From assembly GCA_951813565.1 (NCBI GenBank), contig OX638351.1, positions 3,328,001 through 3,392,000 of the forward strand: a stretch of DNA of 64,000 bases, written 5' to 3'. The DNA is from an uncultured Poribacteria bacterium. Its GTDB lineage: Bacteria; Poribacteria; WGA-4E; WGA-3G. Positions 18,001-24,000 of this stretch are shown here, one piece after another; the first letter of the stretch is position 1; every line of letters starts with the position of its first letter. The position numbers are program-made.

Positions 18001-21000
18001 ATCGGAATTATTTATGCACACCCCTCAACTAAATAACCCTGGTGTTGCAATTGGAAAGAACGATTAACATCGCGGCATTTAGCAAGGAGATCACCCTATG
18101 ATAATAAATAAAACGCACCTTTGAAGTGGCAAAATTCTAAAAGAATTGACACTTCTTGGACTAAAATGTTAGAATTTCAGAATAAATCTACAAACGAATC
18201 TATTTCATTGTATAAACAAAAAGGAGTATCATGAAACAAATTTTTCAAAAAACATCCATCCTTTTACTGCTTTTCACATTTATTACAGCAAACGCCAACG
18301 CAGCGCACAACTGGACAGAACAGATTGCCAGTTTTAAACCGATGGTAGTGAATGTCGAAACTGCTTCTGAGGTTGTCTTCGAAACGGAATCAAAAGGCAC
18401 AAGCTTCGCTACCGGTTTCGTAGTTGATGCAGAACGTGGGATTATCGCCACGAACCGACATGTTACAGGCAGCAGTCCTGCCTATGTTAAAATCAACTTT
18501 CATGATGGTAGCTTTACAGAAGCAAATATTCTTTACTATGACCCAACGCACGACTTCGGATTTTATAAGATTGATCCTGCTGAAGTTGATTTTGAACTGC
18601 AAGCCGTTGAACTTGGTGAATGGGATAAACTCGCGCTCGGCGATGAACTACTGCTGATTGGCAACAACGAAAAAGAGGAATATTCTATCAAATTTGGTAC
18701 GATTGCGAACCTCAATGTCAACAAAGGTGATAGACATTCAAGTTACATCCATACCACGTTCGACAGAACAGGCGGGTCAAGTGGTAGTCCTGTATGGAAC
18801 ACCGCGGGCGAGGTTATTGCTATCCATGCACGCGGAACAGACACCTCCAGTTTTGAATTACCCATTGATTACCTTATTGATGCGCTGGAATTAATTCAGA
18901 ACGAGATGCCTATTCAACGTGGCGAAATCGGTGTTGATCTTGAACTTATCTCCATTGGAGAAGCCATAAAACATTTTAATTTTCCAGAGGTTTTACGCAA
19001 AGAGATTGGTCCTTCCAAAGCTGGCACACCGAAAGTTATTCAGGTAGAATCTATGGTGCCGCGGACAACAGGTGAAACCATCCTCCGAGCATCCGATATT
19101 ATCTATCGCATTAACGATGAACTTATCCGAGATGATTTATACACCTTTGATGCTATTCTGAATCAGAACGTCGGTAAAGAAGTCACTTTGGACATCTACC
19201 GTAATGGAGAAAACCTCAGTCTTCAGGTGCCCGTAGAGAATTTAGAGAAAAAGAAAGTTCAGAGATTCGTTCGATTCGGTGGTGCTGTTTTTCACGACAT
19301 AACGCCGCAGCTGCGTCGGTTGCTCTACTTGGAAGCTAACGGTGTCTATATGCCCCATGCCGCTGCGGGTAGTAGTTTTTCACGTGTCGGTGTACAAGAG
19401 CGGAACGGTAATTCTAAGGTGGTTATTCTTGATGTAAATGGAAAGCAGATTCGGAATCTGGACGATTTCATTGAGGCATGCAAAACCATTACCGATGGAC
19501 AACACACTTATGTTGTTGTCCGAGATTTCAATCTGTTTGACAGCTCCCCAACCCCGAAAAGTTTAACGGTCAACCTTAAATTCGGTCCATTGCAACAATT
19601 TAAATGGGATTCTGAGAAGTTAGATTGGGAAGAAGTAGTTGAGTAATACCAAATTAACGGGATTTATCGCATTTTCCGGACGGTAGGTGCGGTTTCCTAA
19701 ACGCTCCATAACTGTCAATTTAAGAAAAAAAGCGTAGTCGCGCAATTCATTGCCAAATCAACGCCAAGCGCACTTGGGCGAATACGCCAAATCAACGGTC
19801 CGAATCATGGCGAATGCCGGACGGGGAATGCCAAAGGGCATTCATACCCGGTGAATGACTAAAGACGAATGCGCTTTTGGCATTCGCCATGATTCATACC
19901 GTTGATTTCTTGATTTGGCGCATTCGTCTTTAGGCACTCCCCGTGTGGTATTCGCCATGACTTGTCGCCTCGGACATTCTGTAGGAGCGAGCTCCAGCTC
20001 GCGACCGGGAGGTCGCTCCTACAGAAGAAAATCGGGGTTGAAAACCCGCCAAATGCCAAAAAGCGCATTTGGCGTTGATTTGGCAGCATGCCAAACGCGC
20101 ATGCTGCGTTGATTCGCTCCCACAAGAGGGTATATCCTTAAATTGACGCATAAGGCGCGTTTTCCTAACTGCTCCATAAATATGAATCAAGTTAATGTGG
20201 TATAAGAAAACGCGCTAAAATAAAAGTAAACGAACCTTTTATTTTTAGCTATGTCTAATTGAAAATGAGGGCAATTGATTTTCGCCCAGATTTAGGTCAC
20301 CGCTTCCTTCAAGAGGAATTCAAGGTCATCCGATATTGAATGCCTTTTAAGAGTTAGATTCTTCTTTCTCATTTTAGTAAAATTCAGTATACTCTTACCA
20401 TTGATTGCGAGCGTGGTCAAGAGTTTCTTCACTTACAGAATCCCAATGGGTAGATTCTATTATCCGATGCTGACCCTGCGCGTTGTGGACTCGGATTCCG
20501 TCTTGATCCAGGCGATGGCTCGGGTTACGCGTTTCTTATTCATCATTTTTTGAATAAAAAACTTTGACATCACCAAATAATATTGTATAATGTATACAAT
20601 TTGCTGGATCAGTAAAGATTGGTATGGTAGAATGGGTGCAGTTTATTCAAGCTTATGTAACTTAACGCGAAACTCACGTAAAAGTGAGATTCATTTTTAT
20701 AGGAGGTTGAACGGCATGAAAATTATATTGGTATTAGTAGGATTTGTGTTGATGATAGCCTATTCTGTTATCGGCACGAGCGACATGGCACAGGCGGAGG
20801 AAGTCTTGGGAGTAGGAACGGATTCGCTGCTCGGAGGAGACCTAACCGACCCAGAAGACGATGGTAATCCTGAAGCAGATGACGGTTACGACGCCATTTT
20901 CACTGCCAACGATGAACCTGGATTCGCTGGCGGGGAATTTGCGTTTAACGTCTTTGATAACACCCTTGGCCCCGGCAATGCCAAATGGTGCTGAGGACGT

Positions 21001-24000
21001 GCAGGCGGCATTCCGGAGGAAGGCCTACACATTACAGCTGAGTTTGAGGAGCCGTACGCATTGACACACTTCACCGTATCTTCAGCGAACGATGTTCCTG
21101 CGAGGGACCCTACAGTGTGGGAGGTTCAGGGGTCGAACGACGGCGAAGATTTTACGACTATCTATGCTCACGACGGGGACAGTTTTTGGGATCAGCGACT
21201 GCAAGTCGTCCTTTTTGAGGCAGGGGTAGATTACGACGTTCAAAAAATCGGATATCGGTTTTTTCGGCATGTTACTTTTGACACCGTAGCGAACCCGGCT
21301 GGGGCGTACTTTCAAATTGGCGAAATTGAGTACTTCGGCGATGATAGTTATCCCGTAGACCCTAAAGCCAAGGTCACAACCACATGGGGAAGCATCAAAA
21401 ACATCCGATAAACACAAATATCGGACATTTTCTAAATCGGCTTGAATCCAGTAATAACTTGGTTTGAGCCGATTTTCATATCTGCTTGAAACCGTATGGA
21501 CTATACTGGTGAGGACCTTTTTGATTTTGAACCGCGAAAATCTTCATGCTCATATTGATTATGAGTTTATAACATGGAATTCCTCAATGACCATCGTGCT
21601 TGGAAGCAGAATGATACTAATCCTCCGTTTGGTGCGGTAAAAATCGGCACTTGGTACTGGATGAAGGCTGAAATATCAGACGATGGTTTTACGGGCAAAA
21701 TCTGGGAAGATGGCGAAGCAGAACCGAGAGATTGGCTCCTTGAAAGCGCACTTGGTTTTGGTGGTCTTAGACCGAAAAGTGGTCAAGTGGGTCTAAATGG
21801 AGGATCAAGCAGTGATCCGCCTGGGCTTACGGTTGTATCATTTGATAATTGGACGATCTGCGAAACAGCTGATGAGTGCACACCGGATGAGATTCTTGCT
21901 GTTCAAGCAGCTGGCAAACTTCCAACGGTTTGGGGAGTACTCAAAGCGCACTATTAAAGGTCGTGCCACAAAATTGACATACTTCAAGTCTAAAGCCTTG
22001 GAATTCTATAGGATCCCAAGGCTTTAAATTTGCAGATTGCAGAGCATTCAAAATTGTAGTTCAGCAGAGATAAAATCCGAAGCGAAACGTTCTTCATAAA
22101 TTCGGGCGTAATTTATATATACATCAATAATTCGCAGGCCAACACCACCAGTTAAAGCACCGTTTGAACTGCCAACCCGTAGAGAAAAAAACGATGACGG
22201 AGTCCATTCGACACCGAAATAAAACTCCGGTTCTGCATCTTCGGTAGAGAGGGCAATGTCTGCGGAGAATTGATATGAAGTATAACGATAGGCGATGCCG
22301 AGTGTCACCCATTGAATACCGCGTCCGTCAAGGTTTTGCAACAGACATCCGAATTTGAGTTCTGGACGCGGTTTGAAAAGCAAACCGATGTCGTAAGAGG
22401 TATGGTATCCAAAGAATTGGTAATAATCGGACGGGTGCTGTCGTTTGAATTTGAGGCTTAATCCTGCAGCAAAATACGCACCGAGTTGACGTGCAAAACT
22501 ATAGTAATTAAAGTCAGGAATGCCATTTGCCACGTCAATAGCAATCTTATTTCCCCAATAGAGACTGTAGCCGCGCCAACTATAGCCAACACCTTTCGGA
22601 TCGAACCGATAATAGTGTCGATCATGAAACTTGGTAACACCGAAAAGCTTAACACCCTGCCACTGAATTAATCCTGCAGGATTCCAAAAACCGGCGGTCC
22701 CATCGTCAGCGACAGCAGTAAAAGCATTCCCCATCGCCAATGCGCGAGCACCTACATAAAGCGGACGCGCCGTTTCAAAAGGAAATTCTGTCTGTCCTAA
22801 AACAGGTGCCGTTAGAAAAAGAAAACAAACAGTAAAAAAACAGAAACGAGATTTCTGTAAATAACGTCCTGAACCCCCTATTTCAATCATCACTTTCTCG
22901 GTAATTGCTTTTGAACATTTGCATGAGTCTGCATCAAAATTGTGCTATTACTTATAGATATTTTATCAAATATAGGTGAAATTGCAAGGGAAATCAGTAT
23001 TGCTCAATAGATTGCCACTAAACTTTTATACTCGAATTGCGTCAAAATTGCTAATATACTTTATCAAGAAATTTCTGCACTCAGAATTTGTTCTGAACTT
23101 TTGAAATTGATTATTGTCAAAAATAAAAGGCTTGTTAAAATTACGACTTGTGCCAGTTAAGTGAAAGTTTTGTTGTTTTTCACAATTGTTCATATTTTGG
23201 AATCAACGCCAAATACGCTTTTGGCATTTGGCCGGAGCGATCTCCGAATCGCGACACGTTTGCAGTCGGGAATCGGAGTTCCCTCCTACCTTGAGGACAG
23301 CAGCTATCGGAAAAGTTGCGGAATGCAAACCCAAACAAGAGGAACATGTGAAATATAAATATACCAAATGTTAACTGGCATAACGCGTTAAAATTACAAT
23401 TTTCTACAATATAAGTTTTAAGTTTAAGGAGATGCTAATGCTTCGATGGAGAATTGGGTTTACTCTTTTCCTGTTTAGTTTGCAGTTTGTCGTAATTCTT
23501 TGTGTAAACGCACAAGAACCAGAGGAAATTGACTTATCTCAACCACTAACACTTGAACAGTGTATTCAAATGGGGTTAGAAAAGGCGACGAGTATGCGAA
23601 ATGCTCGGTTGAGTCTTGCTATTCAGGAACTACGTATAAAAAATGCACGTGCAGGTTATTTTCCTACAATTTCGTCTTCTGGACGGTATGATTTTTCTGA
23701 TCGGTTGGATTTCGGTTTTGAACGTGAGAATTACAATTTAGGATTGACAGGACGTTATACGCTTTGGGATAATGGGCAGCGTGAAGTAAATTACGCACAA
23801 GCAAAAGAAGGATTGGTATCTACAACGAGTCGGAATGAAGGAATTAAACAAGGTTTAATTCTTCAAATCACCCAAGCATATTACGACGTGCTTAAAGACA
23901 CAGAACTTGTTAAGGTTAGCTTAGACGTGTTGGAACGTTCAAGGGAAAACACAGCACAAACCGTAGCATTAGAGGAAGCAGGTGTCCTTATACCCGCTGA

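What a model noticed while it worked through the whole genome (the two positions that open the first line are those of the whole stretch)
20716..21411. New selenoprotein family: secreted CBM32/discoidin-fold protein with a Trp-Cys-Sec motif
g02901 and g02902 (C1:3348716-3349411, +) are one gene of 231 codons interrupted by an in-frame TGA in the motif N-A-K-W-C-U-G-R. The protein has an N-terminal signal/anchor helix and a discoidin (F5/8 type C, CBM32-like) beta-sandwich. In the wider domain family the place is a conserved vicinal Cys-Cys; here the second Cys is replaced by selenocysteine, and a Cys paralogue (g03136, C1:3653105-3653803, 84% identical, TGC at the same codon) lies in the same genome. 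No known selenoprotein family has this fold or motif.
Evidence so far: Read-through ORF with coding signal on both sides. In 61 genomes of the family the protein is found in 52; about 19 full-length matches carry exactly one TGA, the others none. In 12 of 12 TGA-bearing copies inspected the TGA is at the same codon (KWC-TGA-G) and the copies without stop have TGC there: a Sec/Cys pair. A hairpin (CCUUCC-GGN-GGAAGG type) starts 13-17 nt after the TGA in all of them. 94 instances of K-W-C-C in the 150 best representatives of the domain family. AlphaFold model pLDDT 85; best PDB matches are CBM32 modules and muskelin/DDR2 discoidin domains. No Pfam hit over threshold (F5_F8_type_C 27 bits, cut 28.2) and no NCBIfam model; not among 119 families of review PMC1318891 [...]
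(Added by a program. Inside this text positions count along the whole contig: contig position 3,328,001 is position 1 of the stretch shown here. "Call 12" and the like, gene names such as g00115 and contig names such as C1 are that model's own, and its searches are not shown. The text may have been shortened before it was handed on; [...] marks where a part breaks off. The agent that wrote the report below was given it as the finding of a first reader that could run no searches.)

Follow-up and report, generated by a model that had tools for sequence, protein, structure and literature searches.

The report
Secreted lectin-fold protein with selenocysteine
A sponge-symbiont bacterium (Candidatus Poribacteria) encodes a small secreted sugar-binding-type protein in which one of two adjacent, always-conserved cysteines is replaced by selenocysteine, a protein type not on the current lists of selenoproteins.

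Summary
Window 20716-21411 (+) is one 231-codon gene with a single in-frame TGA (20992-20994) in the motif K-W-C-TGA-G.

- **Machinery:** the genome has tRNA-Sec next to selB, plus selA and a Sec-containing selD. It uses TGA as an ordinary stop elsewhere.
- **Same codon in relatives:** of 78 copies read in relatives, 27 have TGA at exactly this codon and 51 have Cys-Cys. All 27 are in one genus.
- **Downstream sequence is translated:** codons after the TGA are under the same purifying selection as in Cys forms (dN/dS 0.25 against 0.24).
- **SECIS hairpin:** a hairpin 17-20 nt after the TGA fits the published bacterial SECIS model. Its core is in 27 of 27 Sec forms and 12 of 51 Cys forms. Its synonymous sites are frozen only in Sec forms (pS 0.06 against 0.39 elsewhere in the gene; Cys forms 0.26 against 0.32).
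- **Protein:** signal peptide, then a discoidin/CBM32-like beta-sandwich (pLDDT 87.5), then a Poribacteria-type C-terminal tag. The Cys-Cys pair is invariant across a large extracellular domain family.
- **Novelty:** no discoidin (PF00754) family is in the 2026 catalogue of 119 prokaryotic selenoprotein families.

Sec decoding is well supported but has no proteomic proof. Function is inferred: a chemically reactive vicinal Cys-Sec pair in a binding module.

The parts
20564..20591 (+). Sigma-70-type promoter, TTGACA-16 nt-TATAAT, 12 of 12 consensus matches, about 125 nt upstream of the ATG
   Evidence: It is the only 12/12 site in 19600-22100. The total number of sites there is no higher than in shuffles, so this is a consensus match, not proof of function.
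20702..20707 (+). Ribosome-binding site AGGAGG, 8 nt before the ATG
   Evidence: Read directly from the sequence.
20716..21411 (+). Selenoprotein gene: 231 codons plus TAA, with one in-frame TGA
   Evidence: Full-length homologues exist in 89 of 101 family genomes. dN/dS is 0.33 upstream and 0.25 downstream of the TGA among Sec forms.
20716..20796 (+). Signal-peptide-like N-terminus: MK, an 18-residue hydrophobic helix, then AQA|EE (residues 1-27)
   Evidence: Sequence features. The model shows a helix at residues 2-19 with low confidence. The feature is conserved in all copies. Cleavage and export are inferred.
20806..20871 (+). Conserved acidic N-terminal arm LGxGTxxLLGGDLTDPEDDG (residues 31-52). 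It resembles calcium-binding repeats; that resemblance is inference.
   Evidence: Nearly invariant columns G32 G34 L38 G40 D42 L43 T44 D45 G50 in alignment A1. pLDDT is about 95.
20884..21345 (+). Discoidin / F5/8 type C (CBM32-like) beta-sandwich, residues about 57-210
   Evidence: Pfam PF00754 at 27.5 bits, residues 75-167. AlphaFold2 pLDDT 87.5, pTM 0.79. Foldseek probability 1.00 to CBM32 modules, muskelin discoidin and the 7nsn accessory domain. Profile hit to 7nsn at E 5e-21.
20989..20991 (+). Cys92 codon (TGC), first residue of the vicinal pair
   Evidence: Invariant column C92 in 44 of 44 sequences of A1. Replaced by TGA in a small U-C variant clade.
20992..20994 (+). Sec93 codon (TGA), read as selenocysteine
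   Evidence: The same codon is TGA in 27 and TGC/TGT in 51 of 78 copies. A contig of an independent public run spans it unchanged. tRNA-Sec, selB, selA and selD are present.
20999..21030 (+). SECIS-type hairpin inside the coding sequence. Core GGCAUUCC-GGA-GGAAGGCC at 21007-21025, apical loop GGA at 21015-21017, 20 nt after the UGA.
   Evidence: -8.6 kcal/mol, 3-nt loop starting GG, 4-bp upper stem, spacing 20. It meets all four constraints of the bSECIS model quoted in PMC13188914. Core present in 27/27 Sec against 12/51 Cys forms. pS is 0.061 here against 0.391 in the rest of the gene in Sec forms.
21352..21408 (+). C-terminal tag PVDPKAKVTTTWGSIKNIR, shared by about 97 ORFs of this genome. 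Probably a sorting signal.
   Evidence: Low model confidence at residues 220-231. Relatives outside Poribacteria carry a PEP-CTERM anchor at this place.
21404..21425 (+). Terminator-like hairpin overlapping the stop codon, followed by a T-rich tail
   Evidence: 7 pairs, tail CATTTTCTAA. Consensus match only.

Best explanation
This is a genuine bacterial selenoprotein gene of a family that is not on the published lists.

**Shown by comparison**
- UGA-93 is decoded as selenocysteine by the genome's own SelB/tRNA-Sec system.
- Decoding is directed by a hairpin that starts about 13 nt after the UGA inside the coding sequence.

**Inferred from sequence features**
- The product is made with a signal peptide and exported.
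- The mature protein of about 200 residues is a single discoidin (F5/8 type C, CBM32-like) beta-sandwich. It is preceded by an acidic, calcium-site-like arm.
- It ends in a Poribacteria-type C-terminal sorting tag. In this genome that tag marks roughly a hundred small lectin-like or eukaryote-like secreted proteins.

**Inferred function**
- The only two Cys-type residues of the mature protein are the adjacent Cys92 and Sec93. In the oxidising exterior they most likely close an eight-membered selenenylsulfide ring at the ligand-binding end of the sandwich.
- Cys was exchanged for Sec repeatedly, and at either position of the pair. I therefore read the pair as a chemically reactive centre of a binding module, not a passive brace.
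- My odds, given a real selenoprotein: thiol/disulfide exchange with a ligand or redox switching about 0.3; soft-metal or metalloid binding about 0.25; passive ring-stacking platform for a sugar about 0.3; other 0.15.
For: **Machinery**
- tRNA-Sec at contig c[5209004-5209097] lies beside selB (344 bits). selA scores 607 bits. selD scores 372 bits and itself carries one TGA.
- selB is over its cut-off in 99 of 101 family genomes.
- TGA ends 395 of 2077 long ORFs, so the genetic code is standard.

**Sec/Cys pair**
- TGA is at the same codon in 27 of 78 copies and Cys in the other 51.
- 25 of the 27 Sec copies are full length (225-231 aa) with no other stop. The other 2 run off contig ends.
- The Sec/Cys label needs 7 changes on the tree, at least 4 of them forced by well-supported branches. 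One all-Sec clade has 13 members.

**Translation past the TGA**
- dN/dS downstream is 0.25 in Sec forms and 0.24 in Cys forms.

**SECIS**
- The window's hairpin meets all four published bSECIS constraints.
- Core hairpin: 27/27 Sec against 12/51 Cys. Extended hairpin: 27/27 against 3/51. Local folding energy: -8.9 against -4.0 kcal/mol.
- In Sec forms synonymous diversity in hairpin codons 98-104 is 0.061, against 0.391 in the rest of the domain. Amino-acid diversity there is higher (0.210 against 0.106). In Cys forms pS is 0.264 against 0.321.
- The window's Sec copy reads CCG GAG GAA GGC. Its own Cys paralogue reads CCG GAA GAA GGT, two synonymous changes that both break pairs.

**Fold and family**
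-.
- The Cys-Cys pair is invariant in 44/44 aligned relatives, present as KWCC in 136/150 representatives, and present in 55 of 56 metagenome copies; the 56th is another TGC-TGA form.

**Not catalogued**
- Table 1 of PMC13188914 has no PF00754 or discoidin family.
- Three further literature searches gave no relevant paper, and the deep-Sep paper and its supplements have none.
Against: - There is no proteomic or selenium-labelling evidence. The organism is uncultured.
- Covariation in the hairpin is weak. The core is invariant, only 2 cells show double changes, and 76 of 500 shuffles do as well.
- Only 4 phylogenetically independent Sec/Cys contrasts exist. The hairpin goes with Sec in about 3 and never against it, at p 0.25. 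The raw 27/27 against 3/51 therefore overstates independence.
- 6 of 27 Sec forms fall just short of the -7.5 kcal/mol rule, at -6.8 to -7.6.
- 13 of 51 Cys forms also pass the four-rule test.
- In the RNA-library contigs laid on the gene, every contig covering 20994 reads C. They come from Cys-form relatives, so transcription of the Sec allele is not shown.
- Rfam has no match.
- Pfam's discoidin score is just under threshold for this protein.
- Function is inference only. No coordinates were available to measure the S-Se distance or to place the pair relative to known CBM32 ligand sites.
- The model puts residues 91-93 in a beta-strand, which is not the commonest setting for a vicinal bridge.
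Confidence: 0.82

Rival explanations
1. The selenoprotein is real, but the Cys-Sec pair is only a passive structural or ligand-contact element. On this view a vicinal ring packs against the flat face of a sugar, and Sec is a near-neutral substitute for Cys.
For: The fold is that of carbohydrate-binding modules. [quoted passage not shown] Related domains sit in proteins with LamG, PA14, CBM9 and TSP3 repeats. Most copies use Cys-Cys.
Against: Sec insertion is costly and inefficient. In the catalogued families Sec sits in redox or metal sites (PMC13188914, section 7). Sec forms here are kept under selection together with their hairpin over a diverged 13-member clade. Sec has arisen or been exchanged at least 4 times, and at both positions of the pair. 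That is hard to square with neutrality.
Confidence: 0.28
2. The UGA is passed without selenocysteine. Either there is leaky read-through by a near-cognate tRNA (Trp, Cys or Arg), or the UGA is a real stop that yields a 92-residue peptide plus, at most, a separately started C-terminal ORF (21061-21411).
For: No protein-level data exist. Gene callers do split the gene: 62 of 120 short database hits end in KWC and 34 are C-terminal halves. A TTG-started ORF exists at 21061. Transcription of the Sec allele was not shown.
Against: A 92-residue product would end inside the first third of a single beta-sandwich. The stretch between the TGA and the next possible start (codons 94-115) is conserved in frame in all 27 copies. 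dN/dS downstream equals that of Cys forms. A hairpin with frozen synonymous sites occurs only where the codon is TGA. The full Sec machinery is present. The codon replaced is always Cys, the hallmark of Sec.
Confidence: 0.06
3. The TGA copies are pseudogenes: recent nonsense mutations of a Cys codon (TGC>TGA is one step) in a multi-copy family.
For: Ordinary breaks do occur in this family. G016 has TGG>TGA at Trp134, G083 has TAG at codon 5, and the single U-C copy I could read (G078) also has a 1-nt frameshift. Genomes keep an intact Cys paralogue.
Against: 27 copies in 22 genomes share the same codon with no second lesion in 25 of 25 complete ones. They form old, diverged clades under purifying selection. 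Random nonsense would scatter over 231 codons.
Confidence: 0.03

Closest known systems
Family 32 carbohydrate-binding modules / F5/8 type C (discoidin) domains, e.g. Clostridium perfringens CBM32s (PDB 4a44, 2j1a), muskelin discoidin domain (4oyu)
   Same: Same beta-sandwich fold (Foldseek probability 1.00, E 5e-7 to 1e-5, TM to target 0.6-0.74). Near-threshold Pfam PF00754 match. Extracellular setting.
   Different: Sequence identity is only 13-20%. None of these is a selenoprotein. The K-W-C-C/U motif and the acidic N-terminal arm mark a separate subfamily. The ligand is unknown. From memory only: DDR1/DDR2 discoidin domains have a Cys right after the equivalent Trp, disulfide-bonded near the collagen site. 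I did not test this.
Accessory domains of the multi-domain GH92 alpha-1,2-mannosidase of Neobacillus novalis (PDB 7nsn)
   Same: Closest solved relative by sequence profile (E 5e-21, two domains) and top Foldseek hit. It shares the SANDxxxRDPxxWxxxGSNDG core.
   Different: The match covers only the part after the Cys-Sec motif (profile positions 113-220). It is part of a glycoside hydrolase, and no Sec is involved.
Catalogued bacterial selenoproteins with an adjacent Cys-Sec ('CU') motif: SaoL (MerB-like), HgcA, SaoC, SaoB, MbdU, KCU-star, Csac_0668 family (Table 1 of PMC13188914)
   Same: Sec directly follows Cys. Cys-Cys homologues exist. By their names, several act on metals or organometals.
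   Different: Different folds and families. None has PF00754, and none is listed there as a lectin-type module. NCBIfam models for them do not hit this protein.
C-terminal Gly-Cys-Sec-Gly of mammalian thioredoxin reductase (recalled, not from a call)
   Same: Adjacent Cys-Sec followed by Gly, known to form a reversible selenenylsulfide ring. Here the motif is Trp-Cys-Sec-Gly.
   Different: In thioredoxin reductase the motif is at the flexible C-terminal end of a flavoenzyme that reduces it. Here it is internal (92-93 of 231), in a predicted strand of a binding domain, with no reductase domain and outside the cell.
Vicinal disulfides at ligand sites, e.g. arabinofuranosidase 1wd4
   Same: Adjacent half-cystines in a carbohydrate-handling protein that contact a sugar ring (PMC12102755).
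   Different: Sulfur only. No Sec variant is described in the passages I read. The fold is different.
PEP-CTERM sorting signal
   Same: The C-terminal tag begins with a V-[ED]-P tripeptide at the place where non-poribacterial relatives have VPEP + membrane helix + RRR. NCBI names some poribacterial homologues 'PEP-CTERM sorting domain-containing protein'.
   Different: There is no hydrophobic helix and no Arg cluster; the tag instead continues K-L-T-T-T-W-G-x-I-K. Neither Pfam PEP-CTERM nor any NCBIfam model hits this protein.

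Membership tests
Bacterial selenoprotein gene (SelB/SECIS-dependent UGA recoding) | In-frame UGA aligned with Cys in homologues | tested here: met
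   27 TGA against 51 TGC/TGT at one codon in 78 copies. The genome's own paralogue has TGC.
Bacterial selenoprotein gene (SelB/SECIS-dependent UGA recoding) | Hairpin just downstream meeting the bSECIS model: loop 3-9 nt with G in the first two places, upper stem of at least 4 bp, 16-37 nt from the UGA, energy <= -7.5 kcal/mol | tested here: met
   Window: loop GGA, 4-bp upper stem, spacing 20, -8.6 kcal/mol (rules). 21 of 27 Sec forms pass all four rules. The other 6 miss only on energy.
Bacterial selenoprotein gene (SelB/SECIS-dependent UGA recoding) | selA, selB, selC (tRNA-Sec) and selD in the genome | tested here: met
   selB is present in 99 of 101 family genomes.
Bacterial selenoprotein gene (SelB/SECIS-dependent UGA recoding) | Coding conservation continues past the UGA | tested here: met
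   dN/dS is 0.25 downstream (300 Sec-Sec pairs), against 0.24 in Cys forms.
Bacterial selenoprotein gene (SelB/SECIS-dependent UGA recoding) | Selenium found in the protein | not testable with these tools
   Needs mass spectrometry or selenium labelling.
F5/8 type C (discoidin) domain, PF00754 / CBM32-like | Score over Pfam's gathering threshold | tested here: not met
   27.5 bits against 28.2. Close homologues and 31 of 43 multi-domain relatives do pass.
F5/8 type C (discoidin) domain, PF00754 / CBM32-like | Eight-stranded beta-sandwich superposable on solved members | tested here: met
   pLDDT 87.5. 212 PDB matches at E <= 0.001, led by CBM32 and discoidin chains.
F5/8 type C (discoidin) domain, PF00754 / CBM32-like | Binds a carbohydrate or other ligand through the loops at one end | not testable with these tools
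   No coordinates and no assay were available.
Any of the 119 catalogued prokaryotic selenoprotein families | Same domain family and Sec motif as an entry of Table 1, PMC13188914 | tested here: not met
   I read the whole table. It has no PF00754 or discoidin entry. The words discoidin, lectin, carbohydrate, galactose, secreted and Poribacteria each occur 0 times in the paper. No NCBIfam model hits.
Thioredoxin-reductase-type GCUG redox tail | Cys-Sec-Gly at the C-terminal end of a pyridine-nucleotide disulfide oxidoreductase | tested here: not met
   The motif is at residues 92-94 of 231. No oxidoreductase domain is found in Pfam.
PEP-CTERM proteins | PEP motif, hydrophobic helix and basic cluster at the C-terminus | tested here: not met
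   The tail is PVDPKAKVTTTWGSIKNIR, with no helix and no Pfam PEP-CTERM hit at E <= 1. Non-poribacterial relatives do have the full signal.

The most novel reading that the evidence does not exclude
The invariant Cys-Cys pair of a large, uncharacterised subfamily of extracellular discoidin domains is a reactive centre rather than a brace. That subfamily has 1377 representative proteins at E <= 0.001. The poribacterial Cys-Sec and Sec-Cys forms would then be the first secreted, lectin-fold selenoproteins. On this reading they are binding modules that capture their target through selenium chemistry. The capture could be covalent selenenylsulfide exchange with a thiol of the sponge matrix. It could equally be chelation of a soft metal or metalloid at the cell surface of a sponge symbiont.
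Probability: 0.3. Interest if true: 0.85.

Novelty: new variant of a known kind. Interest (0 to 1): 0.68.

Why it matters
**An unusual selenoprotein.** According to the 2026 review, most characterised selenoproteins have thioredoxin-like folds with redox-active motifs. A Sec in a secreted carbohydrate-binding-type sandwich would widen the range of places where selenium chemistry is used.

**A pointer to function.** Selection for Sec marks which two residues matter in a widespread but unstudied extracellular domain family. Simple U/C/S exchange experiments can follow directly.

**An annotation problem.** Public gene calls split these genes in two (62 of 120 short database hits end in KWC).

**A clean SECIS test case.** In Sec forms the synonymous sites of the hairpin are frozen while the amino acids change. 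The Cys forms serve as the built-in control.

**Biological context.** The gene belongs to a set of roughly 100 tagged, signal-peptide-bearing lectin-like and eukaryote-like proteins. These are probably how this sponge symbiont touches its host.

Tried and rejected
- **Rfam** on 17000-24000 at E <= 1: no match.
- **Covariation** on 25 distinct Sec hairpins: weak. 85% of cells are paired, against 31-67% when slid, but there are only 2 double changes.
- **Independent contrasts:** too few (4) for significance.
- **DNA pattern AARTGGTGATGNGG** over 112 family genomes, looking for Sec-Cys forms: mostly unrelated hits (about 100, against about 25 for the reversed control). Only the G078 hit lay in the gene.
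- **Metagenome scan with the U-C type N-terminal half:** no U-C locus recovered. It gave one more C-U form (L179) and 55 Cys-Cys copies down to about 33% identity. Three regex hits were spurious antisense frames.
- **Genome-collection scan with the alignment:** the 80 loci kept were all poribacterial, so it said nothing about other phyla.
- **Laying public runs on the gene:** one DNA-like run carries the TGA allele. RNA-library contigs covering the codon all read TGC. So Sec-allele transcription was neither shown nor excluded, and contig depth cannot rank expression.
- **selD hairpin:** RNAfold did not pick the hairpin I read by eye (GCUC-CGGGC-GAGC, 16 nt after its UGA). I do not use it as evidence.
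- **Earlier notes of this scan:** nothing found by place, sequence or words.
- **Considered and dropped:**
  - An alternative genetic code (TGA is a normal stop).
  - Assembly error (27 independent assemblies plus a public run).
  - A thioredoxin-reductase-like enzyme (no such domain).
- **The careful tree search did not finish.** The quick tree was used.

Full report
**1. What is in the sequence.**
On the + strand an ATG at 20716 follows AGGAGG (20702-20707). The frame runs to TAA at 21409-21411 with a single internal stop, TGA at 20992-20994, in the motif N-A-K-W-C-TGA-G-R. Table 11 splits it into ORFs 20590-20994 and 21061-21411. A perfect TTGACA-16-TATAAT lies at 20564-20591, and a terminator-like hairpin at 21404-21425. 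Both are consensus matches only.

**2. Can this genome make selenoproteins?**
Yes.
- ARAGORN finds tRNA-Sec (anticodon tca) at contig c[5209004-5209097], directly beside selB at 5209221-5211116 (344 bits, cut-off 242).
- selA scores 607 bits.
- selD scores 372 bits and contains one in-frame TGA in K-C-A-G-TGA-A-S-K.
- selB is over its cut-off in 99 of 101 genomes of the taxonomic family. The two misses are 81% complete.
- TGA ends 395 of 2077 ORFs of 300 aa or more, so the code is standard.
- Names attached to near-identical proteins and loci say Candidatus Poribacteria.

**3. Comparative test of the TGA.**
- The protein matches 89 of 101 family genomes at E <= 0.001, five of them only at about 1e-4. 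150 matches were listed and 26 were not.
- 28 listed matches carry one TGA, all in the window's genus. They fall in 22 of the 40 genomes of that genus searched, counting only motif-site TGAs. None of the 61 genomes of other genera has one.
- I fetched all 28. I added the single TAG-bearing match and a subset of the stop-free ones: the 30 best loci plus 16 regions of my choice. In total I read 78 copies.
- Of these, 27 have TGC-TGA and 51 have two Cys codons at the same place (TGC TGC 47, TGT TGC 2, TGC TGT 1, TGT TGT 1).
- The 28th TGA (G016) is TGG>TGA at Trp134 of a Cys-Cys copy. The TAG (G083) is at codon 5. These are ordinary lesions, and they show what random damage looks like.
- 25 of the 27 Sec copies are complete at 225-231 aa with no other stop. 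The other 2 run off contig ends.
- On a quick maximum-likelihood tree of 75 copies, the Sec/Cys label needs 7 changes, at least 4 forced by starred branches. Three copies under 200 aa were left out, and the careful search did not finish. One clade of 13 is all Sec.
- Nei-Gojobori dN/dS among Sec forms is 0.33 upstream and 0.25 downstream of the TGA. Among Cys forms it is 0.29 and 0.24. The part after the TGA is therefore translated and constrained.
- A contig of an independent public run spans the codon with the A intact.

**4. The hairpin.**
- Published rules for the bacterial SECIS core are: apical loop 3-9 nt with G in its first two places, upper stem of at least 4 bp, 16-37 nt from the UGA, and energy <= -7.5 kcal/mol (PMC13188914, Fig. 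2 legend, section 5 read).
- The window's element at 20999-21030 has loop GGA, a 4-bp upper stem extended by GGC/GCC, spacing 20 and -8.6 kcal/mol.
- 21 of 27 Sec forms pass all four rules. The other 6 carry a 6-bp CCUUCC-GGC-GGGAGG hairpin at spacing 17 with -6.8 to -7.6 kcal/mol. 13 of 51 Cys forms also pass.
- Simpler counts: core TTCC-N3-GGRA in 27/27 against 12/51; extended hairpin in 27/27 against 3/51; local energy -8.9 against -4.0 kcal/mol.
- The strongest evidence is at synonymous sites.
  - In Sec forms pS in hairpin codons 98-104 is 0.061, against 0.391 in the rest of the mature domain. pN there is 0.210 against 0.106.
  - So the peptide changes (I/L, E/A, E/G, L/I) while the pairing is kept.
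  - In Cys forms pS is 0.264 against 0.321.
  - Codon 101 ends in G in 25 of 25 Sec forms and 11 of 50 Cys forms.
  - Codon 103 is GGC in 21 of 25 Sec forms and 4 of 50 Cys forms.
- The window's own pair shows the same pattern: Sec copy CCG GAG GAA GGC, Cys paralogue CCG GAA GAA GGT.
- Limits: classical covariation is weak. Only 4 independent contrasts exist, with about 3 going with Sec and 0 against, at p 0.25. Rfam has no hit.

**5. The protein.**
- Residues 1-27 look like a signal peptide: MK, a hydrophobic helix, then AQA|EE. This is inference from sequence.
- AlphaFold2 with a 44-sequence alignment gives pLDDT 87.5 and pTM 0.79, about 95 over residues 30-210.
- Foldseek finds 212 PDB chains at E <= 0.001. 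They are led by the accessory domains of a GH92 mannosidase (7nsn), C. perfringens CBM32 modules and the muskelin discoidin domain. A profile search finds 7nsn at E 5e-21, but only for the part after the motif.
- Pfam F5_F8_type_C scores 27.5 against 28.2. NCBIfam gives nothing.
- The domain is widespread. There are 1377 representative proteins at E <= 0.001 and 178 at <= 1e-30.
- KWCC occurs in 136 of the 150 best representatives, 161 instances in all.
- Both Cys are invariant in 44 of 44 aligned sequences, even where Trp is Phe or Ser.
- Cys-Cys is present in 55 of 56 metagenome copies down to about 33% identity.
- Of 43 long relatives scanned out of the 150, 31 pass PF00754, 14 have bacterial TSP3 repeats, 13 have Laminin_G_3 and 10 have PA14. 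Others have PKD, cadherin-like, PEP-CTERM, dockerin or CotH domains. This is the make-up of large surface proteins.
- The mature window protein has no Cys-type residue other than C92 and U93.

**6. Setting in the cell.**
- The protein ends PVDPKAKVTTTWGSIKNIR. 97 ORFs of this genome end in the same tag. 93 of them have a Met-started frame of 150 aa or more, and 76 of those have a crude signal-like N-terminus.
- From a random 20, 16 were scanned; 4 were dropped because my coordinates were wrong. Of the 16:
  - 9 are Laminin_G_3.
  - 2 are ankyrin-repeat proteins.
  - One each is LDL-receptor class B, CBM9, DUF4960 and 3-keto-disaccharide hydrolase (the last just under its cut-off).
  - 1 has no hit.
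- Single-domain relatives outside Poribacteria carry PEP-CTERM at that place.
- The selenoprotein is thus one of a large set of small exported binding proteins.

**7. A second Sec position.**
- Six database clusters of N-terminal halves end one residue earlier, at ...N-A-K-W.
- One matching locus (G078) reads AAA TGG TGA TGC GGC, that is K-W-Sec-Cys-G, with the same hairpin now 23 nt away. That copy also has a 1-nt insertion after G-S-N-D-G.
- Two of the clusters share their longest contig length with intact C-terminal halves (13041 and 331053 nt). This suggests intact genes, but I could not read their DNA.

**8. Expression.**
Contigs from three RNA libraries of sponge metagenomes cover most of the gene at high word depth. 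Every contig over 20994 reads C, so they come from Cys-form relatives. The family is present in RNA libraries. The Sec allele's transcription is not shown.

**9. How it most likely works.**

*Shown by comparison:*
- SelB/tRNA-Sec decode UGA-93 with the help of the in-frame hairpin.

*Inferred:*
- The protein is exported and sorted by its tag, and the domain is a binding module.
- Cys92 and Sec93 form a vicinal selenenylsulfide.

*The case for a reactive pair:*
- The 2026 review states that most selenoproteins are thought to serve redox functions.
- It lists adjacent 'CU' motifs in SaoL (MerB-like), HgcA, SaoC, SaoB, MbdU, KCU-star and the Csac_0668 family. By name, several of these are metal or organometal proteins.
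- Sec was exchanged with Cys repeatedly and at both positions.
- I therefore favour a reactive pair: thiol/disulfide exchange or redox switching about 0.3, soft metal or metalloid binding about 0.25.

*The main rival (about 0.3):*
- The pair is a passive ring that stacks on a sugar.

*Recalled, not tested:*
- Thioredoxin reductase's Gly-Cys-Sec-Gly forms such a ring.
- DDR discoidin domains have a disulfide-bonded Cys right after the equivalent Trp.

**10. Novelty.**
- I read all of Table 1 of PMC13188914 (119 families or subfamilies). It has no PF00754 or discoidin entry. The paper never uses the words discoidin, lectin, carbohydrate, galactose, secreted or Poribacteria.
- Full-text searches:
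  - selenoprotein + discoidin gave 46 papers; the 15 listed are all animal or medical.
  - selenocysteine + 'type C domain' + bacteria gave 0.
  - selenoprotein + PF00754 gave 0.
  - Poribacteria + selenocysteine gave 3, none on this protein judging by title and abstract.
- The deep-Sep paper and its three held supplements have no such term.
- Subscription journals, and supplements not held, could still contain it.
- Sources name the homologues 'hypothetical', 'discoidin domain-containing' or 'PEP-CTERM sorting domain-containing' protein.

I rate it a new family of a known kind with an unusual fold and location.

**11. Limits.**
- There is no protein-level proof.
- Function is inferred.
- The Cys set is a subset of the matches, and 26 matches were not listed.
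- Kin are not independent.
- The tree is the quick one.

Noticed in passing
window 21352-21408; 97 ORFs across the window's genome (e.g. contig 3653134, 3260196, 3261116): A shared C-terminal tag, [AP]-V-[ED]-P-x-x-K-[LV]-[TA]-T-T-W-[GA]-x-[IL]-K plus 0-6 residues, ends about 97 ORFs. Most are 220-420 aa with signal-like N-termini. In a sample of 16, 9 are Laminin_G_3, and the rest include ankyrin, LDL-receptor B, CBM9 and DUF4960. It stands where relatives in other phyla have PEP-CTERM, but it has no membrane helix. It looks like a Poribacteria-specific sorting signal. No Pfam or NCBIfam model hit it in the selenoprotein.
   Followed up: partly
L251 (G078:C170, motif at 151429-151442, minus strand); proteins P0357, P0361, P0365, P0368, P0371, P0376: A small clade has the TGA one codon earlier, reading K-W-TGA-TGC-G (Sec-Cys instead of Cys-Sec), with the same hairpin. 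The one DNA copy I could read also has a 1-nt insertion after G-S-N-D-G. Database fragments suggest intact copies elsewhere.
   Followed up: partly
L046 (G016:C3:623242-623934) and L067 (G083:C1:5344447-5345145): Two ordinary lesions in Cys-Cys copies: TGG>TGA at Trp134, and TAG at codon 5 within the signal peptide. They are useful as a baseline for random damage.
   Followed up: yes
L044 (G044:C1:2340600-2344600), L064 (G038:C6:334250-337770), L048, L054, L068, L069, L070, L077: Copies often sit in tandem. G044 has Cys, Sec and Sec forms within 4 kb. G038 has two Cys forms and one Sec form within 3.5 kb.
   Followed up: no
window 19650-20270 and 23200-23235: The roughly 1-kb ORF-free stretch upstream of the gene is packed with nested inverted repeats. 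Examples are 19789-19818/19879-19908 (93% complementary) and the perfect-centre palindrome 19977-20026. Motifs such as GCCAAATGC...GCATTTGGC recur at 23200-23235. It may be a cluster of REP- or MITE-like elements. No Rfam match.
   Followed up: no
window 21574-21957 (+): A 127-aa ORF just downstream has no Pfam hit and ends K-L-P-T-V-W-G-V-L-K-A-H-Y, a variant of the tag. It may be the C-terminal remnant of a tagged protein.
   Followed up: no
contig 4610940-4611866 (-) and 5209004-5211116 (-), outside the window: selD is itself a selenoprotein (TGA in K-C-A-G-U-A-S-K). tRNA-Sec lies 124 nt from selB.
   Followed up: partly
public protein collections (P0271-P0389): Gene callers split the Sec forms. 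62 of 120 short hits are N-terminal halves ending in KWC, and 34 are C-terminal halves started at an internal GTG/TTG. Both kinds are named 'hypothetical protein' where named at all.
   Followed up: yes
contig c[593527-594166], outside the window: ARAGORN calls a second, permuted 'tmRNA*' that overlaps tRNA-Ala(tgc), besides the normal tmRNA at 2195363-2195712. It is probably a false call.
   Followed up: no
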